Shown here in pieces: positions 253 to 64,000 of a stretch of DNA of 64,000 nt; positions within the stretch are counted from its first letter, which is position 1; each line of letters starts with the position of its first letter. Under the pieces are notes generated by a model. It was not told the origin of the DNA, ran no database searches, and was given only the letters and a program-made list of their open reading frames with translations. The translations under genes and the position numbers were made by a program. The DNA is from Amoebophrya sp. A120 (taxonomy: Eukaryota; Protista; Dinoflagellata), in the NCBI GenBank assembly GCA_905178155.1, contig CAJINV010000009.1, positions 2,643,373 to 2,707,372 of the forward strand, written 5' to 3'.

Positions 253-3200
253 CTGTTTTCGTGGGACTGGTCGGGTTGATGCTGGAACACCGTTGTTCGC
301 CGCGCTTGCCGCAGCAAAAGCACCACGCTGATGCGTAGTTCCAGTCGCCGCACCACCGGGAACATATCGACCGGAGGCGGCGCCACCAGTGCTCGAATGT
401 AAAGACGCCGTGGGGGAAGTTTGCCCCTGAAGATTTGGGTCTCCAACACCCCCAGCTGCACGATGTTGATCCCTAGAAGTTGTTGTAGTTGTCCCTTGAG
501 GATGACCTCCTCCCTTTGCAGCAGTAGAACTCACCTGGATATTGTGCCACGTTCGCATCCACCGAACCGGAATCTTCGCAGTCTGTCTTGTAATCTTCGA
601 AGATTTCGTACTGTAGCCGATTCTGTATATCGTTTGTGGTTTGCCCTTCTCAAATTCTTCCTCCTCCTCATCGCTCCTCAGCACGGTCGTGCTGCCAATC
701 GTGCCTTCCGTGCCCGTCGTCGCTGACCGGAGACGGTTCTCGGTTAGGGGAGGGTGGGTCGGAGGAACTATTGTTCCAGAAGATCGTACACCTCCTGCGG
801 CGGACGAGTCTTGCTTGTGCTGTTCCTGGTGATCGAAAGCTTCATCATCTTCCGCAGTAAAATGAAAAATCGCTTCATCCTCATCATACACCTTCGGCAC
901 AGAAATCGGCAACGAATACCGACTTTCCTCTTCCCTCAAAGCCGGATTCGACGCGGCGAGGATTGACGGTTTCTTCTTCGTATGCAGTGCAAAAGTATCG
1001 CGCTCGTACTACTTAACTGCACTAATGCATTAGATATTCCGCATCGCAAATCTAATCTGTAACGCTGAGCCAAGTTGCATTGCACGTTTATACTAGTACG
1101 ATACTTTTGCAATTCATACTTCGGCGCATTTGCGTACAAATAGTGCTCGACTTGCTTCTTCCACGAATCAAACTTCCGGATCAACCGCTTCCTCCTTTTG
1201 TACTCTTGAACGGCCGCGGGAATCGACTTCGTCTGGGGGTAGTTGCTGTGGAGAGAGTAGGCGTCGTCGACGAGTTTAGTAGAATTTTGATGCGTCTTGA
1301 TGTTCTGGTGGCCTTCTTGCTCTTGAAATTTATTGGTATTTTTACCACCCCCGTCAGCTCCACCTGATGTTGTTGACACAGACGCTGCGAACGGCCACTC
1401 CCCCACGGTTAACTTCTTTTTCACTTTTCGCTGCTCCAGCTTGTCTTTTTCGTTTATCGGGACAAGGACAAAAACAATCGACCGGAGCACCGAGCGGAGT
1501 CGATACCAGGGAAAATTCTGCTCGGTGGCTTTCTTACTGGCAAGGGACAAGCTGGAGGCAACAGCACGCGACGTAGCACCCTCTCCAAGTAGGTCGCCGT
1601 CACTGCCGACGAAATTCTTTTCATACAAAAACGCCGGCGTCGCTGCTGGCATATGGGGTTCTCAAACGTTCCATTCTCAACTGTTGCATGAATTTGTCAT
1701 GCAAAAATACCATTATCATCCACAAGACCAAGCCGCCTCGCATGACAAATTTGCGAAGGGCTACTAGGCAGCACCTAAATCTGTTCGGGATTTGTGATGC
1801 TACAGGCGCAACCTTCCCCCTTTCACTTTTGCCATTCTTGCATCACAAATCCATGTAATCGGTGAGAATGTAACAGTTGAGAACGCCATATGGCAAAGGG
1901 TGTGCTTGGGACACGATTTGGTCCACTGTGTTCCACGGGATGACGTCCGGTTGGCAGAAAGTCAAATGCAAATGTGTCTGGGTCTGGAAAGTTGGAACTT
2001 GTAATGCTAGCTTTCCATACCTAGAAAATCTGTATTGCATAACCAACATCAAAAGTCGCACCCTCTTTTCTCATTACAAAAACGCAGTTTCTCATGCTGA
2101 CTGACTATGAGAATGCGTTCCGGAAAGTTGTCATACTGGGTCCCATTCGGAACTGTTTCGATCATCCACATTTTAGCATCAGAAGTTTCCAGACCCGGAC
2201 ATATTTGCATTTGATACAGAAAACGCGTTTCTGATTCGTCCACGATTCCCGTTATCAAGTGTAAAAGTGTCTGGGTCTGGAGAAGTGTAGACTTGTCATT
2301 TTCCATGACCCGTGAGGTCTGGAACGCGGGACTTAGCATGACAGACTCTGCGAGGTCTCTGCCATGCCTATCCTGCATGAGAAACTCCCTTCCAACTACT
2401 TGAACAAAAGCTTACAGCTTTTGGCACTCATGCAACACAGATTTTTGCATGCTTCAGATTTACCATGACAAGTTCCATCCTTCCAGACCCAGACATTTTT
2501 GCATTTGATACCCGTTTCACATAGTCAATTTTCGTCGTGAGACCGCGCAAATTGTCGTATTCGTAGCGGAAGTAGAAGTGTTCGGTGGAGGAATTGTGGG
2601 CGTAGTAAGGTTCTTTTTTGTAGCTGCTACCTCTGCCGCGAAGGGCGACGCCATTGGTGTTGCTGTTGCAGCTGCCTTGTGGAGCAGGAACGTCGATCAT
2701 TCCCCCTCCTTCTTGGGTTCTTGAGGTATTCATCCAATTGTTGATGTTGTCCTCCTGCTGATGAAACAAATGCGCACCGCTCTCGTCGCCGGTAAACACC
2801 GTCCCCGCGCTGTTTGGGCTACTGCTGCTGCCTCCACCGCCGTACTTGTTCTGGAAAACGGATTCTTGGTAAGACCCCGGGGTGGGCGTTGGCGAGGGAA
2901 GCATGCTATCCGCGCTTGGACTTGACGCGCCGGTAGTTCCTGATCCAGAGCTGACATTCACGAACTGGCTGGTAGGCTGCTGCTGCAAACCTGCTGGATC
3001 ATTATAGCGCGGATCATTGCCGTAATCTTGCCGCGTCCACGAGTGGGACATCGGATCTGCCGCGCCCTCTGGCTTTACACCACGCGGCGGTCGTACGATT
3101 TTATTTCCGTGTAGTTGTCCCTGAGGCCTCCGCGGAGCAAAATCTGTAGCAGTAGGATCAAGGAGTATTGTGAGGAAAAATCCCCCCTCCCCATATCGAA

Positions 3201-6200
3201 AGCGGAATGTGTGTTGCTGTATTTGAGTACGCAAATCATATCTGTCTTGCTGGAGAGGACTGCAGACCCATATCAAGCCTGAGCAGAGAGGCTTTGACTT
3301 AGGCGCATAGCATGAAAAGCGTCCGTGGTGTTGGCTCAACAGCATGACAAACCGCCTCCATAATGGGACGGAAGCTGCTGCCCTTGTCTTCTTGCAACAC
3401 AAACGTGATTTGTGACCTCAAATCAGCAACACAAATTTTCGAAAACCTACCTTTTCAATATGGGGTGGGGGGATTTTTCCTTTTGATAAGTAGACCAGGT
3501 TCTTCCGAGATGGCGCTCGCCTTGCTACCCCGCTTGTTGTTAACGGTAGAATTGACGCCGGCAACCAGGTCCTCACCGCCGGTTGTACCACCGCCAATGC
3601 CGATTTTGCTACCCCTCTGACTGCTCGAATGGTGGTCATTTATTTTGCTCTCATTGTACATGTACGCGCGTTTCTGCAACACTCGCAAGATCGACCTACG
3701 GAGAACGTATTCGTATCCTGTGCAAAAGTATCGTATTCGTATACATGCATTACAAATTTCCTCAGCATGAGAAATAAAATTTGTAATGCTGATTTACCTT
3801 AAGGCAAAGATTTGTATATGCATGAATGCAATACGAGTACGATACTTTTGCAGTTCATAATTCGTAGCTGACCACGATGTCGTCGACGTGCTGTTTTTGC
3901 TCTATGGCGTTCTCAACTGTTCCATTCATTCCCAACTGTCACATGAATTTGTGATCCAAGAATGGCAAAAGTGCTAGGGGGAATCTTGCGCGTCCTGCAT
4001 GACAAATTTGGCACCGATTGTCAGCCTGTTTGATGGCCCTCTAAGAATTTGTCATGCGAAGCAGCTTCATAGTGTCGATTTTGAAGGCAATTTTGCATTA
4101 CAAATCATGTAACAGAAACAGTCGAGGATGTAACGTTTGAGAACGCCTTATGCTCCTTCGCCAACTTCGGACTTCTGTCCGTGTCCGACGCAGACGCGGA
4201 GAACCGCATTGTGTGCTGCGCTATCAAGTGCAAACATGTCTAGGTCTGGAAGAGTCCAAGGTAAAGGTTTGTCATGCAAAGGCCAGCATGACTCCAAAGC
4301 CTGTCATGCACATTACCCGAAAGGACCACTTTTCTGTCATGCAGAAACGCGCTTTGTCATGCAGAATACACAACACGTAGGTACTCAGAAACTTGTCATG
4401 CTGCGCTGCCAATTAACGCGTCCTCATGGTTCTTGTCCTACCCGCATCACAAGTTTCCAGACGCAGACATATTTGCGATGCATATGCGCAGCTTTTGCGC
4501 TTTCGTTTTTCGAATCGGTTTTGCTTCTTTCGCCCGGGAGGTGATGTTGCGCGGCTGCAATCACGGATGTTGATTGCGGTAGCCGGAGGCTTGAGGTTGT
4601 GGCAGACGAAACTGCGGCCACTCCGGCGGTCTTCCGTAACCTGGTGAATCCATCAGGCGCTGCTGTTCCTGCAGCAGCTCCCCCATGATGCATTCTTGTC
4701 CGCGAAGATGAGACTTGGGGCTGGGTCGCAGCAGGAGCAGTTGCACCATGAGCAAGATGTTGCTGTGTACTAGCTGCTATCCCACTGTTGCTGTTTCCGT
4801 TCTGACTGCCCCCCAACATGCTCAAGCTTTGCGACTCCGCGATCATACTTCCCTCCGGTCTCGCGACCCTGTTCAGAGTGCTTGCATCGCCAGATGGAAC
4901 ACCTCCTGTCGTAGTTCCTGCTACCATACCTCCAACCGTACCTCCGTTAACACTCGTTAAAGTCGCGTTATTAGGGGTCAGATTCTGTGCACCAGCACCT
5001 CCGATGTCACTGGTTGAGTTGTTGCTGCTACGTCTGTCGGGTTCTAAAACTCCCGCCGAGTTTAGTGTCTCCTCGTTCATCTGCAGCAGCTATGAAGGCC
5101 TCAGGTTGGAAATCCTCACAGTGAAAATGATTTGTAATGCAAAAAAAACGACACCAGTTGAAGCACCATTTCTAGTCGGCGCATGACAAATTTCTTGGGC
5201 ACTCAAAGCGTGTCTGTCATGCTAGTGAGGCAAAGGGGTGCCCTTCTCTCGTGCTAATCTGCAGCCCAATTCTGGACCCGTAGAAGCACAATAGTCGGCC
5301 TCCATTGCGTTCTCTGCAATACAGTTTTTTTGGTGTAGCATTCCATGCACTACAAATTATTTCCACTTTGAGAATTTCCTTTCTGAGGCTTTCATAACAG
5401 CTCGTTTGACCTGGACAAAGAATCGTCCTCTTGATTCAACAGGTTTACAGCGTTCATATCAGCTCCGGAGGGACTCGAAATCGCAGAAGCAGACGCACCA
5501 CCTTGTGGTTGCTGCTGCAACCCACCAAAGCTTAAAGACGTCGCGGAGTGGTCTTTCGTCCTATCTTCCCCAAGACTACCGGAATGCGAGCTCCTATCAT
5601 CCTCATGTGCACCAGCGCCGGCTCTGGTTGAAGATATGTTTTGTTGCAGTCTCCGGAGTTGTTCCTGGTCTAAATTTCGTGTAACCAAATCCAAATTGAC
5701 ATTTAATTCCTCCTATGCAACGCAAAAGCATCATACTCGTATAAATGCATGACAAATTTCCTCAGCATGAGAAATGAAATTTGTCATGCGGATTTACCTT
5801 AAGAGAAAAATTTGTAATGCATGATTGCGATTACTACGAGTACGATACTTTTGCACAGGATACCTCCCCGCTGGTAGAACTGCTGGCGGAAGTACGAGCA
5901 GTGCTTCTCATCAAATACTGCGATATCCTGTGTAAAAACGTCCCCACCCCAGAGTTGTCGTGCAAGTGCGCGACGACAGGAACATTTGTAATGCGCGGCT
6001 CCATGTAAGGCATTTGCATTTCCAACCGTGTTTTGGAATTTGTAATGCTGTAAACAGGATGAGAAAGCGGCTCCCTCATGCAGATTCCCTTGCTAACCAG
6101 CACGAAGCTGCAGAGGCAAACTTGTCATGCGCAACTCCCAAAACTTGGAGATTTGTCTAGCAGATTTCCCATCTTGACTATGGGGTGGGGACGTTTTTAC

Positions 6201-9200
6201 TCAGGATATGCGAATTTTCATGCACATCAGGCGAAACTTGTTGCCCTTCGCCCTGCACCGCCCGACGAGAGGAGGAAGAAGCGCCTCCTGTGCCGCCGAC
6301 GCCCAGCTGGTGCAGCAGCCCTCTGGAGGTTTGCGCGTTCGTCGGGGTGACAGCCGCAAGATGACCAGTAGCGCCGCCGGACAGCGCATTTGCTCCCGTA
6401 GAAGTTCGCGGCGGATACGTGTTTGACGACGAATTCGTCTGCGATAGCACCAATTTCGGTGTCGTGCTTGATCCAGCTGTCGCTAAATTGGAATTCGCCC
6501 TTGCTGGATCCGACGATATTGTGTTCGAACCGGAAACAAGTCGGGGGGAAGAAGACAAATTATACGTGCCTGCCGTATGCTTGTTTTTCAAGCTCGAGGT
6601 CGCTAGCCTCGTCGCGCCACCCGTAGTTGAGCTTCGACTGTTCTGCAGTTGACCCACAGATGCAGAAGTGCCACTACTTGTCGAGACTTTCATTGTCGTG
6701 GTTTTTGACGACGTTTTCGTGGTTTTCGAAGTTGTGAAAACAACAGAGGTTGGGTGCTTCCTGTCGTGTTGCGTGATGAAAATCTGATCGGTGTTAGCGC
6801 TGTAGCTCAGTTATGCATTGCAAAAGTATCGTACTAGTACAAATCGCAATACAAATTTTTCCAGAAGGAAAAATGGAATTTGTAGTGCTGATTTCGCTAA
6901 GAAGGAAGATCTGTCATGCATGATTGCAATTAGTACGAGCACGATACTTCTGCACAGGATATCAGTTCCCAATTGTGGTCCCAGTTACAAACCACCAAAT
7001 TCGACTTCGTGATCGTAGTCGTCGTGGTGGTGGTAGTGGTTTGATGCTGGTTGATAGAGGTAAGTGCCGACTGGGACTGATGATGTCCCCCGAGAGGTGG
7101 ACCACCGCCGGCATGATCCTTGCCAGGTAGATGCAAAGTCGCACTCGAGCCGTGCTTCGGCAACATGCCACTTACCGCGGACGCTGAGCCTGTTCCCGCA
7201 GTGGTTGATGTCGCAGCAGCGGCCGCACCTGCTCCCGATGAAGGTCCTAGCATTTGCATCGCTGTTGGACTCGCAGTAGAACTACTACCTCCTGCACTGA
7301 TGATGTTGGCACCACTTGAGGACATATTAGCCGTCCCGGTTTTATTTCCACCACTCGTCACACCAGCCTATCCCACGAAAAAACTGTTTCACTGTGATGA
7401 TCTTGCAAGATCTGCATCACAAGTTTGTTACACATGACACAGAAAATTTGGCATGCGCGCTTCCAAAGGGAAAACACCGGTAAAGAGACGAGGAATTGCA
7501 GGTGTGGCAAGACAAATAGTTCTGTCTTCCATTCTATCCATCACAAGTTCACAGCGAAACAGTTTTTTCTTGCGATACAGCCCCAGCGTTGTACATGACT
7601 TGTTGGTCCGCAATGGCCGTCGATCGGAACAGTTGCATCCCACAGACCAACCTTGTTCCAACCAAATCTTCGAACAGCTGTCTACTTTTACAGTGCGACT
7701 GCACCACCGGCTGTTCCTTGCCCTCTTCGTCTAGAGTTCGGAATTGTTCTGCGTTCGCCGCGACGCAGGACCAATTGTCGGATTTTTTTCCCAGCATGGA
7801 ATCTCTAAACCCCTTCCCGCTTCTCGTACTTGAGCGGACGTTTAATTTTCGTTCTACGAAAATCGGCAGCAACGGTGGCGAATGTAACACCGACCACAAG
7901 GCTTGTAGGGACAACAGCTTGGCTTTCTTGAAGTAATTCGGATTCTCCTTCGTAATTTCAAAACGCGTCGCGAGCCAACGCTCGGATTCTTCCAAAGTCT
8001 CCGGGGAAATCGGCCCATTTTGTGCGATGAACTCCGCTAATGCCGCTTTGCGCTCCTTCTGGTATTCGAACTGTTGCTGGATTTGCTGCTCTTTGACATT
8101 GGAAAACTTCCTGTACTGTTGCACCGGTTTAGTAGCTGGTTTGGAAGTAGTGCGGCGAGCAGCGGTGGTAGAAGTCGGAAGTGGTACTGCACCAGGAGGT
8201 GCCCCGCCTGTTCGACTTCCTGTTGCAGCGCCGCTGGCTGATGATCCATGAGATAAAGTTTGCTTATCAATAGCAAATATGTCTGGGTCTGGAAGAATGG
8301 AACTTGTAATGCTAGTCCTGCATTCCTGTAAAATCTGTGTTGCATCATGACTAGCAAAAAGACGCCCTCTTTTGTCATATTACAAAAGCGCAGCTTCTCA
8401 TGCTGACTGCGCATGCGAAAGTGTGCGGCAAACTTGTCATGCTTGGCTGCATTCGGAAGTATTTCAGTCATCCACACTTCAACATCACAAGTTTCCAGAC
8501 CCAGACATATTTGCAATGCATATTGCTGATGTTCTTGCAAAGTTGGTGTGGATTGATGCGAAACTGCCCTCCGGTTATTCATGCCTGATTGCATTGCAGG
8601 AGGTAGAGGTAGAGACTCCTGCAGTGGAGATGATCTTCCTGCGCCAGCATCCTGTGCAGTACTAGTACAACTCGGGAAGCTGGTCTGAATCGCAGCAAGG
8701 GGTGTTTTCTTCCCCTTTTGACCAGCTTTCGCGGCGCCAGTCGTGCCACCAGCTGCACCTGGGGAAGTCGCAGGCTTGGTCGCTTGTTTATTTCCCGTCG
8801 CAACGAGGACTCCGCTGGACGTCTCAGTTCGTTTTATTGTCGCAACATCTTCTGAGGCGGCAGAGGAACTCAAATTGACCGTATCGCCGGTGGACAGTTC
8901 TCGGATTTCCAATTGTGTGCTAGATTCAGGACCAGACTGCTTCAAAAACCCACCGGCGGTGGAACTCGCCGCACTATTAAAAGTCGCCGGACTCGGGCTG
9001 GTTGTCGAGGGGATTCTGTTTGTCCCCCTGCTCCCACTCAACGAGTCCAAATTTCCTCGCGAGCTATTCAGCCCACTCCCCGAAGCTGCGGAAGACAGGC
9101 TGGGGTGCGCGGTTACGACCATGCCGCTAATCGCCGCGGTAAAAGGGGCGGAGGACGCGGAGGAATGCAGTTGTTGTCCAGCAAGCATCATGTTCTCATT

Positions 9201-12200
9201 TGAACCGCTGGGCGTGATTTGATTCGACGCTCCAGAGCCACTGCCCGTTTTTGTAACCGAAGGTTTGTTCTTCCCTATGTTCGTGTCCTGACTAGCACCT
9301 GTTCCGTATACTTCTCCCGGAAAGGGAAAAAACGCATCGGAAAACGCGCGGCTCTGCGCGGCAAAGGGCGAGGGAGCGAGCAAGTCCGCGGGCTGGTTAG
9401 TTGCGGACCGCTTCAACGCGGATCGTCTCGCCGTGGAGGAAGAATTTCCGCCGCTCGCGTGCAGTGGGGTCAAAGTTTGATTCGCGGTAAGCAAATCGAC
9501 TTGGTGATGCTGGTGATGGACACTTGCTCTCGTACTTCCAGAGGCTTGCCTTTGCAAGCCGCCGAGGGAATTAGAGGCCGATCCATTGTAGGGAAACGCC
9601 AGCCCGCTGTCACTCATATGAACCCGCAAACCTGTCGGGGTGCTGCGCGGGCCACGGGGCGGCAAACCGGAAGTAGTTGTAGTACTAGGGCCTGCAGAAG
9701 TTGTTCCTCCAGCACTACTCAGTGGCGGCTTGTTCTGCACAAGTTTTCCCCTCGTAGAAGCTGAAGCACCAAACGCCCCGCCAGTATTGTTGAGCGTCCC
9801 TTGTTTATCCCACGAAAAAACTGCTTCACTGTGATGATTTTGCAAGATCTGCATCACAAGTTTCTTACACATGAGACTAAAAACCTGTCATGTGCGTTTC
9901 CCAAGGGAAAACACGCTTGAAATTCCCATGCCTTGCAGGTGTAGCAAGACAAATACTTCTGTGTTCCATTTTCTGCATCACAAGTTCACAGTGAAACGGT
10001 TTTTTCTTGCGGTATTGTTCTGCCACGGTGGTGTTACCGGACAACTGCTTCAAGGCTTCCTTTGCTTCCTCCTGGTTCAAAGTGCTCTGATTAGACACGG
10101 GCGTCGTTCCAGTGGTTCTACTCACATATCCTGTGCAAAAGTATCGCACTCGTACTAATTGCAATCATGCATGACAAATCTTGTTTCTTAGCGAAATCAG
10201 CATTACAAATTCGATTTTTCCTTCTGGAGAAATTTGTATTGCGATTTATACTAGTACGATACTTTTGCAATGCATATCACAATATTACCGGCAATTTGGT
10301 TCGTTTTCGAGTTGTTCCGACTACTAGTGGTCATCTCCTTCGATGAAGACGCGGAAAAAGCTGTCAGAGTTGTGTTCGATTGATCCTGGTCTTGATCCGT
10401 CAAAGTTAAGTCCGCCTGGTCCAAGTCTGAAGTGACCCCGACGCTCAAAATCGACTCGGGTAAAATCGGCGGCCCGCGAGACGAGGATGGAGCCACGACT
10501 TCCACGTGCGCCGCGGGGATGTTCAGTGGCATTTGTGGCCTGCTGTTGATCGCAGGATCATCCAACGGCGTCGCCGGGGTTGTCCCGGCGGTGCCCTCGG
10601 TGGAGTAGCTTGTCGTAGGAGAAGGTTCCTGTGGCGGGAACTGCTGGTTAGGACGGACCCGCTGGTTGACAAGAACCGGTGAGCTTTGGTTGGACAGCTG
10701 GTCTACTCCTGTGCTTCCGGGTAAAAATGGTCTACTGGTTGCTCGTTCTTTCGACGACGCCCGGGAGGAGCTGTCGCCGCCAGCCTGGTGCTGCTCCACT
10801 ATGGCGTTCTCAAATGTTACATTCTCAACTGTTACATGAATTTGCAATGCAAGAACGGCAAAAGTGAAAGGGGAAAGATTGCGCCTTTTGCATCACAGAT
10901 TTGGCGCAGATTCAGCTGCTGTTTGGCCCTTCGGAGATTTGTCATGCGAAGCAGCTTAATCGTGGCGATCTTGCTTGTAAATTTGCATTACAAATCATGT
11001 AACAGTTGAGAATGTAATGTTTGAGAACGCCATATCCACTCTCACTTCTTTCGAAGAAGTTTGGGATTTGCTTGAGTCGCCCTCAGCCACGTGACCTCCC
11101 GGAGTGCTGCTGGTTTCCTCCGCAAGTTGTCCAGGAAGTCCTCCATCTCCCACCTCCACAATATCCTCTAAAATCGATTTTGTCAAGTCTGGGGAGGATT
11201 CGCTCCGGATCTGCTTCTGATGCCGTGCCTTAGCTTTCGGTACAGCTGCTGTGCCCGCAGAAACATCTGCAGCTCGTCCTGCAGAAGTTGTAGTTGCAAG
11301 GTCGTGCCGACCGGAAGTTCTCTGTACTTCACCAGTCATCGCAAGACCTACCTCAGCACTTCCAAGAACTCTTTGTTCCCCTCCGCTTTTCATCTTCTCG
11401 TTCTCCGTCGTGGTCACATACTGCTTCCCGAACTCAAATACGTCCATCTGCCCGCCGACGTAGATGCCTGCGTTGGTCTCAAACTGGTAATCATCCGTGG
11501 GCTCCACCCTGGTCGTCGTCGGTCGCCACTTCACATCGTGAATCCCCAAATCGTGTACGTTCACCATGTCCTGAAGCTTCACATTCATTTGACTCGCTTG
11601 GGATGAAGCTGCTGCCAGGTTTGCTTGAGGCGTAGTTCCAACCACAGGGTAGGGAAAGCTGATTGCGGAAAGTGCCGCTGCAATCGGCGCGGGTTTCATC
11701 CGAGTTTGCTGCTCGACGAGAGTCCGGTATTGGAAATGGTCTCTTGGTGACGTAGTGTGTTGCGCGTTCCAGTTGTCTAACATCTGCATGCGCATCATGC
11801 TCTCCGCTGAACTGAATCCATCGCCGGCTAAGGTACTACTGCTGGCGTCACCGTTTGTTCCGGTGCCAAAAACGGTCGCGTTCAATTTCCTCTGCGATTC
11901 CAGGTAATTATTCACCTTCGCAATCGCGTTCGCCCCGAAAAACGCCTCGCGGAAGTGGTTTGCGGTTTCGAGGTCTTCGGTATTTAAAATGTTGTCGGGT
12001 TGGATCGACTTGTAGAGGTTTTCGTTGGAGAGATAGTACGCGGACAATGGATCTGGTAGCGCAGGAGCTTCTCCATCTGTACTGCTTGTTTTCTCAGCGG
12101 CCGCGGCCCCACCACCAGGTACAAAAAGCGCAGTCAAGCTTCTTTTCACGACAGAAGCCGCGGTGGGGATCTGCGACAAGCCGGCAATTGAGGACATTGG

Positions 12201-25392: not shown

Positions 25393-26300
25393 GATTAAAT
25401 ACCGAGCTGGTCGTCCGGCCAAACGGACGGACGACTAGCTCTCGACAAAATGTGATGGCAACAAGTCAAGCGCGCTTCCTGATCCTGTCTACATATTCAT
25501 CGAAAAAAATGAATCACAATCATGGATGAAGAGAGATCGCTGAAAATGGAAAAGAAGAAGACCACATCATAACAACCAATTACATTTTTCATCCACCACG
25601 AAACGCGTAATCGCATATTGCGACATGATGCGTTCTCCAAACCATAAAATCAAAACTATCCTTCGGCCGCGTCATGACAAGAAGGTACCGAAAAAGCAAA
25701 AGGGTATCGGCATCATGATCCGAATTCAGCAAATTACAACCAGTGCGGCGGCAGCGGCACGGCGGCAGCGGCATGGCGGCAGCGGCACAAATCACGATTA
25801 CAACCAGAACTAAAACTTGACTCAAAAAGCCCTGGATAAAAAGCGAGCAGACGTCAAAGGTCAGCGCGTTGAGATCATTGCGAAAAGGCGGGGATAGATC
25901 GAAAGAACCAGTCACTGTTAAAAACCGCTTTCGCTTTTCGAAGAACTGCAACTGCAAACTGGAACGAAAAAACAAAAAGAAAAAGCGCAGAGCCTATCGC
26001 TACTTTGAGAATCGGTACCTGTATCTGAACTATAGAACGTACGAAGAAGATGAGCGGCAAACAATTAGAATTAATATCACAAGAAGCGCGAACATTAGCA
26101 TTACTTCTTAGGGGGTGCTTTCCGTATTTTTGCGTCGGGACCACTACATCAGCATCGTTTTCTCAATTGCACGAGCCTGATTGCTTAAATCATCGCGCAG
26201 TTGCATTTTTTTCGAAAATTGTTACACCTAACTCCGCGTAGTAGCAAGGCGTGCAACAAAACAATTTTCCAGTGTCTGTATCTCGCAGGCTACGTCAACA

Positions 26301-26513
26301 TCACCTGCATTGGTCACCTGCATTGGTCATATGCATTGATCATATGCATTGGTCATATGCATTGGTCATATGCATTGGTCATATGCATTGGTCATATGCA
26401 TTGGTCATATGCATTGGTCATATGCATTGGTCATATGCATTGGTCATATGCATTGGTCATATGCATTGGTCATATGCATTGGTCATATGCATTGGTCATA
26501 TGCATCGATCATA
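26301..26513. repeat. 13-bp minisatellite (TGCATTGGTCATA)n, about 16 copies, intergenic
   Basis: Direct reading. Confidence 0.95.
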
Positions 26514-26948
26514 TCAAAATTTCAGTGTCTGTATCTCCTCATCTTCAACAGCGAGGACATCGTGCGTCGTCGTCGTCGTCGTCCCGTGGTGCACGACAGC
26601 ACAAATCATGAACCAGTTGTCTTCTTTTTCTCGTCATAGTCGAATTCGTATCTTCTGAAAAATTGATTACGTACACTGCTAGCAGTGAACAACACGTGGA
26701 GCTGATGAATCTTTGCACGTCTACTTCCCCCGAAAAAGAAGCATCTGGCCGAGGAGCAGTTTCCTCATTATCAAAATCTAAATCAAACAGTAACAGAATA
26801 TAATGGTGACGATGATTTTTATACGCATCGTAACTAGTATGAATTATCAGCCAGCATTTGCATCTGTTTCTGCTCTTCCTCTTGTGGAAGGAACAAAGGG
26901 CAAGTAGGTAGAGGAAAAGCAAAGCCTTTCTTGGTGCACTAAGTGGGT

Positions 26949-52700: not shown

Positions 52701-55700
52701 CTGCTCATGCAGCACAGATTTTCCAGGAATGCAAGACACGCATCACAAGTTCCACTGTTTCAGACCCAGCCCACATTTTTGCATTTGATAACCAGGAAAG
52801 GAAAACCATCTCGACGCGGCCGAACGCGTATGACCTGCAAAAATGTTCGGGTCTGGAAACTTGTGATGCTAGTTTGTGAATGGTGGGCGCACTGCGTTAC
52901 CACGCAGCCACGCATGACAAGTTTCTGAGCGTCTAATTCTATGTGTTTCGCTTCCATCCCGCATGAAAAACTGCGTTTTTGCATGACAGGTAAGAGGCTG
53001 CTTTCCTGCTCACGCATTACAGATTCAAGAGTCGTGTCAGACAAGCATGACAAACTTGCAGTCTTCCAGACCCAGACATATTTGCAGTTGATAACGCGGC
53101 GACTTTGACCAACACGGCGGAAAGGTACAGCAGGATCTGGATGGTTTGGGAGAGTGGAATTTAGTTATTTTTGTGGTGCACCATCAATTGCAATAAAGCA
53201 CAGACTCATGTAACGAAAATTTTTGTGATGCAAGAAGAACGATGAACATGCTATGTTACCCCGACAGTCAGGATCGACACCACCCACTGCAGCCCGCATT
53301 TCAAACACGCCTGCTCCAGATAGCTCAACGACTGGTGCTTCTCTGCCTTCATCAAAAATGCCTGCGTCGTCGTCGCAGAGACAACGGCATTTTGAAGATT
53401 CGCAGAAGCTGGCGCAGCTTGATTCACCCCGCCCGGAGGTCCTGCTCCGGTTAGTTGGTTTGGCGAGTTGCTAGAAGTTCCAGGTGCGCCAACGTTGTTT
53501 ATTCCGCCCCCACCACCCGCGACAGGCCCTGCAATCGCGTTGCCGCCATTACTCGCGGAGCCACCTCCACCTGCGCCATCGCCGGTCCCAGCAGGAACAG
53601 CTCCTGCACCGCCCGGACCACTCCCTTGGGCGCCGGCCGAGGCGATTAAGTGTAAAGACCGATCGTCTAGAATTGTCGTCCAGAAGATATGACCTGCTCA
53701 AACGTTACAATCTCAAACGTTACAATAGAATCCGAGATTTGTCTTGCATGATCAACATGACAGACTCGGACAGCATTCCACTTTCTGCAATACAAATTTC
53801 GCCAGATTGTAGTGCGGATTGGGACTCCAGAACTTGTCATGCGTAATCCTGTGGGAGTAGGGTAGATCATGCACTTCTTGCAACACAAGTCCCAGATTCT
53901 ATTGTAACGCTTGAGATTGTAGCACCTGGGCAGGTCATAGAAGATCAGCACGTTGTAGAGAAACAGGATCTATGAAATGCAAAAATGTCTGGGTCTGGAA
54001 GGATGCAACTTGTGGTGCTACCTCTGGATTCTACATAAAATCTGTATTGCGCGAGCAGCAAAAGAAGTGCAATTTGTGCTACGCGGAGAGGGTATTTCTC
54101 ATGCGGTATGAGCATCGGAAAGCCCTCGCAGAGTCTCTGATGCCAGGGCATGCATCACAGACCTCATGGGTCATCGTCATGCAAAATCTGCATGACAAAC
54201 TCCTGCATTCTTCCAGACCCAGACATATTTGCATTTGATAGGATCGGTAGCGCGATCGACATCGCCAGGATGATGTGCTGCACCGTGAAACACCAGGTGT
54301 TATCGCTATCGAAGCAGATTTCGTTCTTGTAAACAATTTTCTCGCACTCATCGCTGTCGTCGACGCAAACCAAGTGGTTTGGGTTGTAAATCGAAATTTC
54401 CGTCCCCGTGGAGTCCAGTATGCAATACAAATTTCCCGCTCAACGTCCACATGTACAAAAGGCATGAGATTTTGATTTTTCGCTAACTGGGATTGTCATT
54501 AAACTTGTCATGCTGGTGACTAAGATTGAAGGCACGTTTTGTCCTGCAGCTGCAGAAACAGCAACAGCATCTGTACGCGTCCGGGAATAGATATACTGTG
54601 AATATCCAACGTGACAGCGCAACTTGGTCTGCTGTCCCCCGTCAACGTGTAGTACTGGACTTGTTCGTTTTCCAGGTCCGTGACGGCGGACACCACCGCC
54701 TGCACTCCACTTGGTAATTCCGAAAATTCCGTCTCGTGGGGGAAAAACGTTTTCAGTGATGCGTTGAACGTATGGGAGTGCCAGGATCGAAATCGTCAAA
54801 GTTGAAATAACTTGTAATGCATAAAATCGATACCAGTTGGAAGCCCAAATTGTAAGCGGTGCATGACAAATCTCGGCACCGTCTAAATCCAGTTTGTCGT
54901 GCTGTTTGGGGACAGCAGGCGTCTTTTGTCATGCTTCCTTAGCAGCTCTATCCCAAACCCGAAACAGGCTCACAATCGGCCTCGCTTGCAATCCCTGCAA
55001 GACCGTCTTTTCATGCCTTGCATTTTATGCATCACAGATTATTTCAACTTTGTCGACTTCAATCCTGACACTCCCATAGAACGGCCCCTGTTGGTAATTC
55101 ACGAACACGGTGTTCTGCTCCAACGCAGCTTTCGAATACTGCTTTCCGAACAGTGACTCCCCGGGTATCCAGGAAAAAAACTGTGTAAGTGCATAGTTTC
55201 TTGGAGGACTAGCATCACAAGTTTGCTCTGCATGACACAGAAAACCTGTCATGCGTAGCTGGTACGTGAAAACACGCGCGAAAATTGCCTCTGATGCATG
55301 TCCAGCATGAAAATGTAGCAGTTTTGCATTTTATGCAACACAAAGTTACAGCACTTACACAGTTTTTTTCTTGGTGGATACCGGGATAGGAAGGAACAGT
55401 CGCTCGGCAGTTCGGGAAACAGACTTGCGTCCTCGGTAGCCTTCCCTGGTAGCTTTGCAACGAGTTGGTGTTTCGTGTTTCCGGGAGGCTGCTGGTCAAA
55501 AACCGGTCCTCGTCCACGAGCGACGTTTTCTCATTCGGGAACGCGACGTAGCGGCACTCATTGAAAGCCTTGGAAGATTCGAGTTCCGCATCGGCTGCGA
55601 TGGCGGAGGTGGTTGTCACGGATTTCGCTTCGTGCCGTCTCCCGAGGTGGAAGTCGTAGAGTTTGGAATACTCGTTATCGCCGTAGTAGATCGAAAAACC

Positions 55701-56275
55701 GGTTTTCAGGAAGCAGGAGAGCGTGGGGTATCCAGGAAAAAATATCCATCCCAATACACTTTGTCATGCAAAACATGCATAACATCCACTATTTGCCATG
55801 CAAAAAAATGGATGGGATGGGTGTTTTTTCCTGGATATGGGAAAGTTTTCCAACACACAGCTGATTTTGCAGTCCAGGCGTCGCTATCCTGTGCAAAAGT
55901 ATCGCACTCGTACTAATTGCAATCTTGCATGACAAACCTACCTTTTTACCACCTGAATTAGCATTACAAATTCAATTTTTCTTTCTGATAAAATTTGCAA
56001 TGCAATTTATACTAGTACGATACTTTTCCAATGCATAGTCGCATGCACAGCTTCCCATTTTCCCAATTCGCATAGTCGACCACGTGGGAGGTGATGATTA
56101 GGTAGATGGAAAGCGCGAGAAACAGGCGTATCAAACGAAGCAACGCGCCGGAGCGACACCGGGGCGGGAGATAGTTTTCGCGGAACCAGTAGCGGAGAAA
56201 AAGGTTGTTGGCTTTCAGGTGCGTCAAATAGGTTTTTGCAACCGGCTCAGCGTTCAAGAAGTCGGAGGCCCACAT
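46734..56275 (-). CDS. Multi-pass membrane protein: Cys-rich loop, voltage-sensor-like (S1-S4) domain and class I 3',5'-cyclic nucleotide phosphodiesterase; 16 introners plus canonical intron 53137-53259
   Basis: PDE motifs NPYHNALHACDV, IHDYQHPGVSN, LENHH, LATD, LHAADISN, EYFRQGD, QLGFI; VSD motifs FALEIVIR, WNLFDF, LLRLLRLLRL. Confidence 0.85.
47309..47421. mobile_element. Introner family D
   Basis: TIR; DR TTTCG. Confidence 0.9.
47527..47654. mobile_element. Introner family D (diverged)
   Basis: TIR; DR TTGAG. Confidence 0.82.
48020..49270. mobile_element. Introner family F with ~1-kb nested insert (about 48062-49037)
   Basis: TIR halves; DR TCCGC; interrupts the PDE catalytic domain. 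Confidence 0.88.
48858..48944. repeat. Tandem repeat ACGAAGTGCTCTGAAAAA(A), 4-5 copies
   Basis: Direct reading. Confidence 0.85.
50105..50262. mobile_element. Introner family B
   Basis: TIR; DR TCGTC/TCACC (degenerate). Confidence 0.8.
50682..51005. mobile_element. Introner family A with nested ~70-bp truncated retroposon (50738-50812)
   Basis: TIR; DR TGTCT/TATCT. Confidence 0.85.
51782..52043. mobile_element. Introner family A
   Basis: TIR; DR AGTCG/AGTCA. Confidence 0.88.
52102..52352. mobile_element. Introner family A (left end CAT)
   Basis: TIR; DR TTTGC. Confidence 0.88.
52536..52790. mobile_element. Introner family A
   Basis: TIR; DR ACCAG. Confidence 0.9.
52829..53093. mobile_element. 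Introner family A
   Basis: TIR; DR ACGCG. Confidence 0.9.
53688..53939. mobile_element. Introner family L (single copy here)
   Basis: TATGACCTGC..TACAATCTCAAACGTTACAATAGAATC TIR; DR GAAGA. Confidence 0.88.
53971..54240. mobile_element. Introner family A
   Basis: TIR; DR GGATC. Confidence 0.9.
54419..54604. mobile_element. Introner family K
   Basis: TIR (degenerate); DR TCCAG/TCCAA. Confidence 0.8.
54771..55078. mobile_element. Introner family G
   Basis: TIR; DR GAACG. Confidence 0.9.
55166..55380. mobile_element. Introner family E
   Basis: TIR; DR CCGGG. Confidence 0.9.
55729..55837. mobile_element. Introner family D
   Basis: TIR; DR TGGGG/TGGGA. Confidence 0.88.
55885..56037. mobile_element. 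Introner family B
   Basis: TIR; DR GTCGC. Confidence 0.9.
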
Positions 56276-58239: not shown

Positions 58240-59804
58240 TCATCCATTATTGAACCCCAAGCTGTTCGTCATCAACTCCGCCAGACTACTGCCCGCGTTA
58301 TTTCGACTGTTCCCAAACCGCCTGGTCCCGCCAATGCCCGCGAAAGCCCCGCCTTGGTTCCCGCTAACGTTGTTTGGATTGCCGGACCCGGCGCCCGAGC
58401 TGCCGCTGTTGGACTTGCTGTGGTCGTTTGCGGACCGGTTTCCGCCGGTGCTGGTGGGGTTTGTCGTAGACCCAGGCTTGGAGCTCGTTCCTGAGGAACT
58501 GGCGTTTTCCTGGATAGTTTTTGTTTGATTTTTGCAACTGCAAGTGCTAGCAACACACAACTACACTACTACATGAACATGTACATCTTCATGGGTCTGG
58601 GTGCTGCATGACAAACAAAAACCCAATCTTCGCAGTATCATTCTCATCGTACCGAAGTGTCCACCGCGTCCAAGTACGGGTGCTTCAGGTACTCCATCCA
58701 GCTCATGGCTTTTATTGACCTGTCTCGGATGATATGAATTGCACAAGTATCGTACTCGTATAAATGCATTACAAATTTCCTCCGCGTGAGAAATAAAATT
58801 TGTAATGCAGATTTGCCTTGGGAACAAGATTTGTAATGCAAGACTTGCATTTGTACGAGTACGATACTTTTGCACAGGATAGATGAACGTGATCTCCGGC
58901 TTGGTCAGAAACGTGCAGTCCAACAGGATGTTGTCCCCGATCATCCGCAGGCCCTCCTTCGCTTTGTGTTTATGCAATACAAATTTCCCGCACATGTACA
59001 AGATGCATCACAAATTTCACCAATTTGGAGTGTGTCATGCTAAACTAGGAAAGAAGACAAGTTTTCTTGCCATGCAGAGACCGCATTTGTAGGTGTACGG
59101 GAAATTTACTGTGGATAGTGTCTCCTGAAATTCACCAGTTCGTGAAACCTGTCGGTGATTTCCTTCCGCGGATTCACCCGGAAGTAAATGCTGTGCATCA
59201 GGAACGTGTGCGCGATATGAGAGTGCACAACTCCCCCTGTCCTTCATTTGTCATGCAAAACCCCAAATCCAAGGGCTTCCCTGTGGCACTCTTTGCATCA
59301 CAAATTCCGGAACAAGCCCGAACAGTACTACAGCAGGCGCATAAATTTGCCATGCACAGGCTCGACGTGTGCTGGTGTTTGTGTTGCTGTTCATGCAATA
59401 CAAATGAGGGGAAAGGAGAGCTGTGCACTGTCATACGCGATCCAGATGAACCACTCGTCTACGGGTTCAAATTTGTGCGGATTTCGCTTTTCGTTCAGCA
59501 ACACCTGCTTCAATTTCCGTTCGGTCAGCCAGTGCGGTGGCCACAGCATGCCGTGCTTCCGCTGTTCCAACTCCAAGCCGAGCCAAATGGGGATCGCGGT
59601 CTTCTGGCCCTTTTTGAACGGGCCGTGCTTTTTCTTCAGCGTGGCGAAAATCTTGTCCTCGGAATTGTAGAAGTTGTCAGACTGGAATATCGGCGAGTCC
59701 CAGTGGAACTCGCAGAGCGCCTCGAGCGCTTCCCGCCGGTCCTCCTTCAACCATTTTTCCAGCGGCTGCGACCAGATCTTGTGCTTCCCGAGGCTGGAGG
59801 CCAT
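58240..59804 (-). CDS. PSF2: GINS complex subunit Psf2-like; 3 introners plus canonical intron 58510-58652
   Basis: HGPFKKGQKTAIPIWLGLELEQRKHGMLWPPHWLTERKL resembles the Psf2 GPF..VPLWLA..L.QR..PPEW motif; LDCTFLTKPEI resembles LDNLTLMEIN. Confidence 0.65.
58733..58881. mobile_element. Introner family B
   Basis: TIR; DR GATGA. Confidence 0.9.
58971..59117. mobile_element. Introner family K
   Basis: TIR; DR GTGTT/GTGTC. Confidence 0.85.
59216..59435. mobile_element. Introner family H
   Basis: TIR; DR CGCGA. Confidence 0.9.
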
Positions 59805-61300: not shown

Positions 61301-64000
61301 CTAATTCGAAGGTTCGATCTCCAAAACCGGGTGGTAATACTTCTTGACGAACAAGTCCATAAACGTCACCAACTCCCGGAACAACGAACCAAACGAATCC
61401 AACTCGTTGTCAAAATCTACCCAATGCTGTTCGTTTTTTGTCACCTTCTCCACCCCGGGAATGCCCTTCAGCTTCACGAGGCAGGATATGGAAGCGTCAG
61501 GATTGAAATTGACAAAGTTGAAATAGTTTGTGATGCATAAAATGCAACCCACAAAGTGGCTGTCTTGCAGAATAGGCAAGGGAGGCAGATTCGAAGCCTG
61601 TTGAGGGGTAGAAATAGGGCTGCTAAAGTAGCATGACAAAAGGCGTCTTCCTTACCCAAACAGCATGACAAACTGGATTTCGGTTCTACCCAAATTTGTC
61701 ATGCGCCACTTGGAAACTGGGCCACGCCTGGCATCCATTTTATGCATGGCAAATCATTTCAACTTTGTCGATTTCAAACCTGACGCTTCCATACAGGAGT
61801 TTTTCATCAGAGGCACCCATCCGGTTAATATCCTGAGTAAAAACGTACCCACACCAGAGTCAAGATGGAAAATCTGCTAGACAAATCGGCCAACTTTGCT
61901 TGTTTCGCATGACAAATTTGGACGCGTAGTGTAGTGCTGTTTGAGCTAGTTCAGCAGCATTACAGATCTAGTCTCTCATGCTGATTGGAGCATGACAAAT
62001 TTCAAAACACCCTTAGAAAATGCTTCTCATGGGGCTCCGCATGACAAACATTTTAAGCATGCAGATTTGCATGACAACTATGGTGTGGGTACGTTTTTAC
62101 TCAGGATAGTTAACTTCACGTAGTTCTCCCGGTACCGGTCTCCGTCAGAATCGAAGTGTTTTTTACTGATCCCAAGGCGCTCAAAGTGCTCCAGTGTTTT
62201 CTCATCCTTGGCCTTCCGGGCGATTTTCGCGAGGTCATCCACGGAAAGACCGTTGATTGTAGTATTTCCCCCGCCTTTAGGATTAGGTGGAAACGACCCG
62301 GTCAAAGACGCAACTGCGGCCTTCTCCGCCGCGGCATTCTTCGCGTCAATCATTTTGGAAAAAGTCTCGAAGGAAGCGCCTGTTTCGCTGAACAGTTGGG
62401 ACTGCGGAATCGTGAATTGGCTCTTGACGATGGTGTGGTAGAGGTCTTTGTCGTTGATTTTTTCTGCGGTGGACAACGCGGCCAACGCGTTGTTGTAGTC
62501 GTTGACTAAAACTTCGTACTCCGGTTGGAACTGCGCCTTCACCCTCGCAAGGTCGTTATAATTTTCTGCGTTCATATCATGGTCGTCGTCGTCAAAATCG
62601 TCCTCTTCATCCTCTACTATCTCCACTTTATCAAACGCCTTCGAGTCCACCAGACTCAGCAATTCCATCGCTTTTAACAGCAAAAGCCCGGACCGGAGTT
62701 TGAAGTTCTTCATCAACCACTCCTTTTGCAGCTCCTGTTCGCTCGGGCTAGCGGTTGTTTTTCGGGTGTTGCGACCACGGCGGCGGGGGTCTTCAAGGAG
62801 ATCCTCCCCTCCGGTTGCCGTTGCGTTCGTTCCGACCACGAAGTATCAAATGCAAAAATGTCTGGGTGTGGAAGAGTGTAGACTTGTCATGCAGATCTTT
62901 CATGACCCATGAGGTCTGGAATGCAGAGCCTAGCATTACAGACTCTGTGAGGTCTCTGTCATGCCCCCAATCCACCATGAGGAACTCCCTCCCAACTTGA
63001 TCGAAAGTGGACAGCTTTTGGCACTCATGCAACACAGATTTTTGCATGATCATTCGGATTTAGCATGACAAGTTGCAATCTTCCAGACCCAGACATTTTT
63101 GCAATCCATACGAAGCACGGATCAACGACTTTCAATGGTTGTGTGCAGTCGTACAGCGTCTTGTTGTCCTTTAGCAATTCATACACTTCCTGTTGTTTCG
63201 TGACGCAATAGTTTAGGACAAAATGTGCCTTGTCTAAAGCGTCGTGGAACAAGTAGACGTTTTTGTAGAGAATCGTGTATTCCCTCGCTTTCTTCTCAGC
63301 TAAACTCGCTCCCACCGGGTTCTTTATGCTGTGCAAAAGTATCGCACTCGTATAATGAATGCATTACAAATTTCCTCAGCATGAGAAATGAAATTTGTAA
63401 TGCGGATGTATATTTGTAATGCATGACTGCAATACGAGTATGAAGGTCGCGCCCGGAGGGCGATATTGGTAACCAAATGCGTGCGCGAAAATCTAACCAG
63501 CGCGAAAGCCTAACCAGCCGCGCGGCGAAAACGCGGCCCTGCGGGCCGCGCTTTGGGGCTATTTGTTTTTGATTACAGTCCCACTACTTCTTCTTCAAGC
63601 CCCCTGCGTGAGAAACTGGCCCCCTGGCCAGGAAGGTATCTGGGTCATCGAGGGCTTCCGGATTCGCATTCAAAGCTTATCGGGGCCGCGGGGAAGTGGT
63701 GGAGCCCGCGGCGGCCCGCAGGCTCCTGCGATAAGCATCGCAGGCGAAATCCGGTCTGCTATTTCGCAGCGGGGCATCCTTTCTAGCCCCCTGCATGACA
63801 AACTGGCCCCCTGGCCAGGAAGGTATGTGCGAAACCACAAACCCGCGGACCCTGCTGGGCCACCAAAGTCGGGCATTTCAGACGCGGCGGAGGTCCCGAA
63901 TTGGTGCCCACAACCCAGAGCAAACGTGGATTTTGGGACATGCCTCCGCCCGCTTCTAATGCATTTTTTTTTCCCCAATCGCGATGGTATGGCGCAAGCG
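61301..64000 (-). CDS. Hypothetical protein, 3' part (5' end beyond window); at least 4 introners
   Basis: Exons 63111-63324, 62109-62843, 61794-61828 and 61301-61486 lie between elements; no family recognised. Confidence 0.6.
61487..61793. mobile_element. Introner family G
   Basis: TIR; DR CAGGA. Confidence 0.9.
61829..62108. mobile_element. Introner family F
   Basis: TIR; DR GTTAA. Confidence 0.9.
62844..63110. mobile_element. Introner family A
   Basis: TIR; DR CGAAG. Confidence 0.9.
63325..64000. mobile_element. Introner family B interrupted at 63439 by a nested TAT-starting GC-rich element (runs off window)
   Basis: Left TIR at 63325; right TIR broken after TACGAG by TATGAAGGTCGC. Confidence 0.7.

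What the first reader, a model, noticed from the sequence alone, without database searches (positions are those of the whole stretch)
981..63110. Conserved terminal architecture: TAT + ~4 free bases + long stem (bulged hairpin at the junction)
Seen: in families A, B, E and K the first 3 nt pair (TAT/ATA), positions 4-7 often differ between arms (e.g. TATGCATTGCAAAAG versus TATCCTGTGCAAAAG), and pairing then resumes for 15-30 bp. Inference: the pre-mRNA folds into a short helix, an internal loop and a long helix with a 5-nt overhang. This recalls structure-defined introns (bulge-helix-bulge tRNA/archaeal introns, IRE1/RtcB-type splicing, euglenid nonconventional introns). Transposase tolerance at these positions is an alternative explanation.
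Basis: inference. Interest (0 to 1): 0.7.

Follow-up and report, generated by a model that had tools for sequence, protein, structure and literature searches.

The report
Known Amoebophrya introners with tolerant ends
The genes of this algal parasite are interrupted by dozens of already described transposon-like introns that are cut out of the RNA exactly; the few unpaired bases near their ends vary freely, are not needed for removal, and likely just mark a stretch that the mobilising protein does not read.

Summary
The window is Amoebophrya sp. A120 DNA. It holds 72 TAT…ATA inverted-repeat elements with a 5-bp target duplication, the introners of Farhat et al. 2021, who already report TAT followed by seven less-conserved bases.

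The dip is real: positions 4-7 pair 174/288 versus 934/1080 at 8-22. It is not a conserved loop. Family A pairs 17/60, but E, K, F2 and F7 pair 85-100%, and 18 of 72 copies have no mismatch. Re-dealing arms within families reproduces the mismatch (156 vs 158±5), whereas stem positions 8-13 covary.

RNA contigs (8 junctions) and matching database proteins (12) show removal of element plus exactly 5 nt, so cuts lie in the duplication, not the loop. Perfect, bulged and frayed tips are all removed. Bulge-helix-bulge and euglenid signatures fail.

Best reading: a tolerant spacer in a transposon end. The long stem likely guides splicing by unknown chemistry. Two leads point to a double-stranded-DNA reader: position 4 is G/C in 140/144 arms, and one 9-mer recurs in all 67 short elements at about 31-bp spacing. 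The scan noted similar hairpin-bounded introns in other genomes.

The parts
1..252 (-). family B element cut by the window start
   Evidence: right arm ends at 252
981..1118 (-). introner, family A
1652..1890 (-). introner, family E
1960..2216 (-). introner, family B, degenerate tip
2253..2510 (-). introner, family B
3166..3488 (-). introner, family F8
3714..3859 (-). introner, family A
3903..4150 (-). introner, family E
4222..4484 (-). introner, family B
5091..5396 (-). introner, family F2
5714..5862 (-). introner, family A
5924..6208 (-). introner, family F7
6812..6961 (-). introner, family A
7369..7577 (-). introner, family F3
8265..8522 (-). introner, family B
9806..10014 (-). introner, family F3
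10127..10276 (-). introner, family A (the quoted arm pair)
10800..11034 (-). introner, family E
13421..13575 (-). introner, family A
13696..13804 (-). introner, family K
16124..16385 (-). introner, family B
17130..17344 (-). introner, family F3
17393..17501 (-). introner, family K
18580..19385 (-). introner, family F6, carrying nested elements
18719..19346 (.). nested TAT-TIR element with its own 5-bp duplication
18871..19197 (.). second nested TAT-TIR element, no duplication seen
20197..20457 (-). introner, family B
20512..20775 (-). introner, family B
20840..21104 (-). introner, family B
21473..21671 (-). introner, family F3
21726..22036 (-). introner, family F2
22091..22238 (-). introner, family A (the quoted arm pair)
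22420..24439 (-). introner, family B, with a ~1.75-kb insert
24881..25149 (.). family B element, the only one not inside a long spliced ORF
26962..27214 (-). introner, family B
27296..27530 (-). introner, family E
28455..28696 (-). introner, family E, duplication 2/5
31887..32770 (-). introner, family A, with a ~0.73-kb insert
32924..33076 (-). introner, family A
33114..33244 (-). introner, family A
37332..37593 (-). introner, family B
37805..38132 (-). introner, family F8
38701..38916 (-). introner, family F9
39008..39273 (-). introner, family B
39582..39796 (-). introner, family F3
39853..40003 (-). introner, family A, degenerate tip
40197..40505 (-). introner, family F2, indel in one arm
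40528..40792 (-). introner, family B
42410..42576 (-). introner, family A
42651..42968 (-). introner, family F2
43074..43339 (-). introner, family B
47309..47421 (-). introner, family K; 1 mismatch at 4-7
   Evidence: RNA skips 118 = 113+5; P0001
47527..47654 (-). introner, family K; one tip is not TAT
   Evidence: RNA skips 133 = 128+5; P0001
48020..49270 (-). introner, family F7, with a ~0.97-kb insert, inside the PDE domain
   Evidence: Pfam profile position 121 on both sides; P0001
50105..50262 (-). introner, family A; imperfect duplication fixes the register at 3 or more bases kept upstream
   Evidence: P0001
50682..51005 (-). introner, family B, with a 73-bp insert
   Evidence: P0001
51782..52043 (-). 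introner, family B
   Evidence: P0001
52102..52352 (-). introner, family B; one tip is not TAT
   Evidence: P0001
52536..52790 (-). introner, family B
   Evidence: P0001
52829..53093 (-). introner, family B
   Evidence: P0001
53688..53939 (-). introner, single copy F10
53971..54240 (-). introner, family B
54419..54604 (-). introner, family F6
54771..55078 (-). introner, family F2
55166..55380 (-). introner, family F3, indel in one arm
55729..55837 (-). introner, family K
55885..56037 (-). introner, family A
58733..58881 (-). introner, family A; 4 mismatches at 4-7
   Evidence: RNA skips 154 = 149+5; P0121
58971..59117 (-). introner, family F6; 2 mismatches at 4-7
   Evidence: RNA skips 152 = 147+5; P0121
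59216..59435 (-). introner, family F9; 1 mismatch at 4-7
   Evidence: RNA skips 225 = 220+5; P0121
61487..61793 (-). introner, family F2; no mismatch at 4-7
   Evidence: RNA skips 312 = 307+5
61829..62108 (-). introner, family F7; no mismatch at 4-7
   Evidence: RNA skips 285 = 280+5
62844..63110 (-). introner, family B; 3 mismatches at 4-7
   Evidence: RNA skips 272 = 267+5
63325..63440 (.). family A element whose right end is missing (end approximate)
250..24535 (-). host ORF of 5,063 codons after removing 30 elements + 5 nt each; Iml1/DEPDC5-like
   Evidence: PF12257
46737..53352 (-). host cyclic-nucleotide phosphodiesterase gene (P0001), 9 elements
58240..59804 (-). host GINS Psf2-like gene (P0121), 3 elements and a GT-AG intron (3' end approximate)

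Best explanation
These are the A120 introner elements, short non-autonomous transposon-like inserts bounded by TAT…ATA and a 5-bp target duplication and removed from the RNA with exactly one duplication copy; positions 4-7 are likely a tolerant spacer in a two-part transposon end rather than a splice-defining loop. Shown: the anatomy, exact removal, cuts within the duplication, independence of removal from the 4-7 mismatch, and chance-level pairing at 4-7. Inferred: a DDE-type transposase reads each end separately as double-stranded DNA. It would read the TAT tip, a G:C pair of either polarity at position 4, the inner G-N-AAA block and a shared internal 9-mer, leaving 5-7 free to drift or to differ between left and right ends. 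Also inferred: in the pre-mRNA the long stem brings the two duplication copies together, and a U1-less, divergent spliceosome most likely cuts at a fixed place next to the stem.
For: Organism: the exon is 100% identical to a protein named Amoebophrya sp. A120. The published A120 motif is TAT, seven less-conserved bases, then three or more A (PMC7789003, passages). Removal is element+5 at 8 of 8 element junctions listed in RNA contigs X8/X9, which also skip two GT-AG introns (15 of 28 joints were shown). It is element+5 at 12 of 12 junctions in P0001 and P0121. 69 of 70 top-level elements lie in long ORFs after that removal. Left/right-preserving permutation, 65 elements: 4-7 pair 156 vs 158.1±5.0; 8-13 pair 360 vs 348.1±2.7; 14-22 pair 493 vs 483.9±4.3. 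Among copies, 4-7 diverge about like the interior (A 0.63/0.66 vs 0.75; B 0.66/0.52 vs 0.60) while 8-13 stay at about 0.9. Position 4 is G or C in 140 of 144 arms but pairs in 40 of 72 copies. Both orientations relative to the gene occur in 7 of 10 families. A shared 9-mer lies in 67 of 67 short elements (15.2 vs 0.9 per kb), with tandem spacing 30-34 bp in 9 of 11 families. Transposase binding to MITE subterminal repeats has precedent (PMC1636448, abstract).
Against: No transposase was found here: no transposase family in the ORFs scanned against Pfam. Farhat et al. found none in A120 and argued against general transposase mobilisation (section 16), though Gozashti et al. report an A120 TIR family with integrase-like ORFs (passages). 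The two-part model of transposon ends is recalled; searches gave no supporting passage. Family A arms mismatch more than pooled re-dealt arms (17 vs 29.8±5.2, p=0.007); this drops to p=0.14 once left/right identity is kept, so selection for a loop in A is not excluded. RNA-level selection on the stem is not shown: G·U excess 46:28 does not exceed the interior strand bias 279:227 (p=0.26). Nothing here tests the splicing chemistry. RNA evidence is one sample, as assembled contigs.
Confidence: 0.7

Rival explanations
1. One reading: a conserved short helix, internal loop and long helix is the signal for a TSEN/IRE1-type endonuclease and an RtcB/Trl1-type ligase.
For: Pairing at 4-7 is lower overall. 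Removal needs no GT-AG: 6 of 70 can be read GT/GC-AG in any register. U1 snRNA was not detected in A120 (PMC7789003 section 10).
Against: Cuts are outside the loop. Keeping 3-7 nt of each arm puts in-frame stops at 17-22 of 69 junctions in the nine frame-keeping combinations. 18 of 72 copies have no loop, and three of these are among the RNA-verified eight. The tip helix is predicted at p>0.5 in 0 of 5 four-mismatch copies and at 0.04-0.21 in two RNA-verified ones. Exon-side pairing shows no excess (max z 1.24 over 64 offsets).
Confidence: 0.05
2. Removal is non-spliceosomal but not bulge-helix-bulge: an unknown nuclease and ligase read the long stem and tip and cut within the duplication, as proposed for euglenid nonconventional introns.
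For: No base preference at any duplication position. Either orientation occurs inside open frames. Arms up to 2 kb apart still bound removable units. Euglenid introns leave as circles without lariats (review PMC11282704, passages).
Against: A120 keeps 83 of 89 spliceosomal proteins, PRP8 among them, and U2, U4, U5, U6, though these also serve its GT-AG introns. Noncanonical introns of Fritillaria are spliceosomal (review). The Euglena signature is met by 0 of 70. This rival is compatible with the tolerant-spacer reading of 4-7.
Confidence: 0.25
3. The elements are cut out of the DNA in the expressed nucleus (ciliate-style precise excision), so the RNA never contains them.
For: Removal of element plus one duplication copy is what precise DNA excision would leave.
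Against: In run X1, which looks like DNA by its even depth of 40-46, eight listed single-copy contigs cross 14 element tips without a break. Contigs drop rare variants, and other life stages were not examined.
Confidence: 0.04
4. The junctions are reverse-transcriptase template-switch artefacts at hairpins flanked by direct repeats.
For: Hairpin plus 5-nt direct repeat is the setting for such artefacts (recalled; papers listed, not read).
Against: The genes cannot be translated without removal: a 5,063-codon frame across 30 elements, and 69 of 70 elements in ORFs. PDE and Psf2 domains run across the sites.
Confidence: 0.02

Closest known systems
Introner elements / non-canonical introns of Amoebophrya sp. 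A120 (Farhat et al. 2021, PMC7789003)
   Same: Same organism, TAT-led inverted repeats with a less-conserved stretch and an A run, short direct repeats, hairpin, non-canonical ends, repeated families.
   Different: Nothing in kind. Added here, and not in the passages I read (figures were not visible): within-copy pairing by position, a uniform 5-bp duplication, G/C at position 4, and a shared, apparently phased internal 9-mer.
Euglenid nonconventional introns (PMC12501133, PMC11282704)
   Same: Inverted repeats bring the ends together; slidable direct repeats; no GT-AG; probable MITE origin.
   Different: The 5'-N3CDG…CH'GN5-6|R signature is met by 0 of 70 in six registers; ends here are TAT…ATA.
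Archaeal bulge-helix-bulge introns cut by TSEN (PMC10485636)
   Same: Structure near both splice sites; can occur in mRNA.
   Different: Cuts here are not in the unpaired stretch, no exon-side helix, no fixed geometry.
IS3EU/GingerRoot and Ginger2 integrase-like DDE transposons (PMC10045372)
   Same: TA..TA termini (IS3EU/GingerRoot); 4-5-bp duplication (Ginger2).
   Different: IS3EU/GingerRoot usually make 6-bp duplications, here 5 bp; no transposase seen in the window.

Membership tests
A120 introner elements | Found in Amoebophrya A120 | tested here: met
   277-aa exon 100% identical to P0001, named A120
A120 introner elements | Inverted repeat: TAT, seven less-conserved bases, three or more A | tested here: met
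   TAT at 137 of 144 tips; A at positions 11, 12, 13 in 112, 115, 134 of 144 arms; families E and F2 deviate
A120 introner elements | Direct repeat of 3-5 nt at the borders | tested here: met
   5 bp exact in 53 of 72, 4/5 in 16
A120 introner elements | Removed from RNA without GT-AG | tested here: met
   8 RNA junctions; 6 of 70 readable as GT/GC-AG in any register
A120 introner elements | Repeated families | tested here: met
   10 multi-copy families in the window
Bulge-helix-bulge / TSEN introns | Cuts inside the bulges (geometry recalled) | tested here: not met
   cuts within the 5-bp duplication; stops at 17-22 of 69 junctions under loop-cut models
Bulge-helix-bulge / TSEN introns | Fixed bulge geometry with an exon-side helix (recalled) | tested here: not met
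   0-4 mismatches among copies; exon-side pairing max z 1.24
Bulge-helix-bulge / TSEN introns | 2',3'-cyclic phosphate and 5'-OH ends; TSEN and ligase dependence | not testable with these tools
   no genome held; RTCB, TSEN and DBR1 do not occur in the held supplement text
IRE1/XBP1-type introns | Sequence consensus in a stem-loop at each cut (recalled) | tested here: not met
   all four bases common at each duplication position
Euglenid nonconventional introns | 5'-N3CDG…CH'GN5-6|R signature | tested here: not met
   0 of 70 in each of six registers
Euglenid nonconventional introns | Stem joining the intron ends | tested here: met
   predicted: positions 9-13 paired at p>0.5 in 57 of 62
Euglenid nonconventional introns | Excised as non-lariat circles | not testable with these tools
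   no raw RNA reads covered these genes
IS3EU/GingerRoot transposons | TA..TA termini | tested here: met
   positions 1 and 2 are T and A in 142 of 144 arms each
IS3EU/GingerRoot transposons | Usually 6-bp duplication | tested here: not met
   0 of 72 exact 6-bp repeats
IS3EU/GingerRoot transposons | Cognate DDE transposase | tested here: inconclusive
   none among ORFs scanned in the window; rest of the genome not held
U2 spliceosomal introns | Branch point and lariat | not tested
   needs raw reads of this strain

The most novel reading that the evidence does not exclude
All A120 introner families, unrelated in their inner sequence, share one end grammar: TAT, G/C, free spacer, A run, and a helically phased internal 9-mer. 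One unidentified protein reads it on DNA to move the elements, and their RNA copies are removed by a non-spliceosomal cut-and-join route guided by the stem alone.
Probability: 0.2. Interest if true: 0.85.

Novelty: already known. Interest (0 to 1): 0.33.

Why it matters
How about 30,000 repeated non-canonical introns of A120 are spliced and spread is an open question (PMC7789003). This window removes one candidate answer, a tRNA-like bulged junction, and narrows the rest. Cuts sit in the duplication (at least 3 of its 5 bases kept upstream in the one informative case), removal tolerates any state of 4-7 and non-TAT tips, and the shared 9-mer and the G/C at position 4 give concrete baits for finding the mobilising protein. 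The elements themselves and their weakly conserved tips are published.

Tried and rejected
No whole genome is held, so TSEN, RtcB, Trl1 and Prp8 could not be examined, and statistics rest on 72 copies.

No RNA holder was listed for 9000-17000. Raw RNA runs X5, X6 and X7 gave next to no reads on exons; nearly all laid reads fit only partly, on repeats. They were not used.

A homolog search with the large Iml1-like exon found nothing at E<=1e-5 among longer proteins. Pfam found no transposase in the nested inserts or GC-rich stretches. Rfam had no match.

G·U versus A·C test for RNA-level selection: 46:28 in the stem (p=0.047), not distinct from interior strand bias; inconclusive.

Excess of synonymous differences between the two duplication copies, 9 of 15 single mismatches: p=0.1-0.2 under plausible nulls; not claimed.

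Phasing of outward-facing 9-mers: none (R=0.33, n=9).

Rows dropped: 5 elements with arm indels from permutation, wobble and folding tests, 2 single-copy ones from permutations, those over 340 bp from folding, and 2 nested ones from ORF tests.

Literature: searches listed no paper on the splicing chemistry of these introns. PMC13630536 (passages) was irrelevant. Farhat's Fig. 3 and Figs S19-S25 could not be seen and may already show some tip features.

Full report
Identity. The window is eukaryotic DNA with genes on the minus strand. A phosphodiesterase exon is 100% identical over 277 aa to P0001, named Amoebophrya sp. A120. Farhat et al. 2021 (PMC7789003; I read the abstract, sections 10 and 16, passages including section 11, and supplement legends and table rows) describe A120 introner elements. 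They have inverted repeats starting with TAT, seven less-conserved bases and at least three A, 3-5-nt direct repeats, a predicted hairpin, non-canonical ends, and U1 snRNA not detected. The finding concerns these elements.

Catalogue. Searches gave 65 elements and 7 were added by eye: 72 in 10 multi-copy families and 3 single copies. A strict version of the rule finds 59 pairs in the window and 0-1 in each of 10 shuffles. The flanking direct repeat is 5 bp: exact in 53, 4/5 in 16, and no exact repeat of 3, 4 or 6-9 bp; the search asked for a 5-bp repeat, so this is partly built in, but the ORF and RNA tests below confirm it independently. 137 of 144 tips read TAT.

The observation. Arms pair at 208/216 for positions 1-3, 174/288 for 4-7, 934/1080 for 8-22 and 481/576 for 23-30. 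Selection used 8-22, but 23-30 were free and are still far above 4-7, so the dip is real. It is family-specific: A 17/60, B 51/88, F3 14/24, F6 6/12, F8 3/8, F9 5/8, against E 17/20, K 19/20, F2 21/24, F7 12/12. Outside A and B the contrast is 96/120 vs 390/450 (p=0.08, 30 elements). 18 copies have no mismatch at 4-7 and 20 have one.

Is the loop selected? Re-dealing right arms among copies of the same family gives 158.1±5.0 pairs at 4-7 against 156 seen. Positions 8-13 pair more than re-dealt arms (360 vs 348.1±2.7) and so do 14-22 (493 vs 483.9±4.3, p=0.024) (65 elements). In family A the mismatch exceeds a pooled shuffle (p=0.007) because most copies carry different left and right tips; keeping left/right identity it does not (p=0.14). 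Among copies, 4-7 diverge about as much as the interior, while 8-13 stay near 0.9 identical. The covariation in the stem could come from subfamily descent as well as from selection. A wobble test did not separate RNA-level selection from strand-biased mutation.

Where are the cuts? Contigs of runs X8 and X9 (one sample; RNA by a guess of the tool, and they skip two GT-AG introns) skip exactly element+5 nt at all 8 element junctions among the 15 joints shown of 28. P0001 and the unnamed P0121 (100% identical over 121 aa) fit only removal of element+5 at 12 of 12 junctions; together these cover 15 elements. Removing element+5 everywhere puts 69 of 70 top-level elements inside long ORFs, one of 5,063 codons across 30 elements. 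Models that cut inside 4-7 give in-frame stops at 17-22 of 69 junctions. So TAT, ATA and the loop all leave with the intron and the cuts fall in the duplication. The RNA-verified set has 0, 0, 0, 1, 1, 2, 3 and 4 mismatches at 4-7, and one member has a non-TAT tip. Imperfect duplications limit the register: at least 1 base kept upstream at 58971 (RNA and P0121) and at least 3 at 50105 (P0001 only). A 5-nt 3' overhang is therefore allowed but not shown.

Folding. In 62 folded copies with flanks, positions 9-13 pair at p>0.5 in 57. The TAT:ATA helix does so in 41, in none of 5 four-mismatch copies, and at 0.04 and 0.21 in two RNA-verified ones. The tip is continuous, bulged or frayed depending on the copy. 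Exon flanks show no excess pairing at 64 offsets. The Euglena signature (PMC12501133, passages) is met by 0 of 70, and 6 of 70 can be read GT/GC-AG in some register.

Signs of a DNA reader. Position 4 is G or C in 140 of 144 arms yet pairs in 40 of 72 copies: each end keeps a G:C pair of either polarity, which makes sense on duplex DNA and not in a hairpin (inference). One 9-mer, TTGT(C/A/G)ATGC with up to one mismatch, lies in all 67 short elements, 15.2 per kb inside against 0.9 outside, in both orientations. Tandem copies are 30-34 bp apart in 9 of 11 families. Inward-facing first copies centre at 36-37, 44-47 and 56-59 bp from the tip (period 10.5, R=0.79, 13 family ends). This test is post hoc, the two ends of a family are not independent, periods 9-12 all score, and outward-facing copies show no phasing. 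Transposase binding to MITE subterminal repeats has precedent (PMC1636448, abstract only). The two-part model of transposon ends is recalled and was not found in searches. TA..TA termini recall IS3EU/GingerRoot, which usually make 6-bp duplications (PMC10045372, passages). Gozashti et al. 2025 report an A120 TIR family with integrase-like ORFs (passages); Farhat et al. found no A120 transposase. None was seen in the window.

Verdict. The elements are known. Positions 4-7 behave as a relaxed spacer; the long stem likely defines the intron. Whether a U1-less spliceosome or another enzyme pair does the cutting is untested here and, in the searches named, not settled in print.

Noticed in passing
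all elements, e.g. window 10127-10276, 16124-16385: A shared internal 9-mer in 67 of 67 short elements of unrelated families, about 31-33 bp apart in tandem and apparently phased to the tips; not mentioned in the passages of Farhat et al. that I read.
   Followed up: partly
position 4 of all arms: G or C in 140 of 144 arms regardless of pairing.
   Followed up: partly
tips of families A, B, F3, F6, F7, K: The same 8-base tips recur in otherwise unrelated families, and at either end within a family, which may mean tip exchange between elements.
   Followed up: no
window 22610-24365 and 50741-50813: Two inserts inside family B elements share the same end with a (CAT)n run, like a long and a 73-bp truncated copy of a non-LTR-type element; no Pfam match.
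   Followed up: partly
window 18580-19385: Apparent triple nesting of TAT-ended elements; the middle one has a 52-bp inverted repeat at 94% identity and its own 5-bp duplication.
   Followed up: partly
window 31905-32640 and 48066-49040: Inserts of 0.7-1 kb inside elements; the host elements still bound removable units, one within the PDE domain.
   Followed up: partly
window 53137-53259 and 58509-58651: Two GT-AG introns carry the same 9-mer and may be decayed introners.
   Followed up: no
window 44500-46050 and 56800-57950: Two intergenic stretches reaching 72% GC with overlapping ORFs and no Pfam match.
   Followed up: partly
window 26300-26510: Tandem array of an 11-bp unit.
   Followed up: no
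window 53254-56308: The spliced ORF extends about 500 codons upstream of the start of P0001, so the database protein may be 5'-truncated.
   Followed up: no
window 63439-63472: About 800 raw RNA reads of run X7 match only this 34-bp stretch, where a family A element loses its right end.
   Followed up: no
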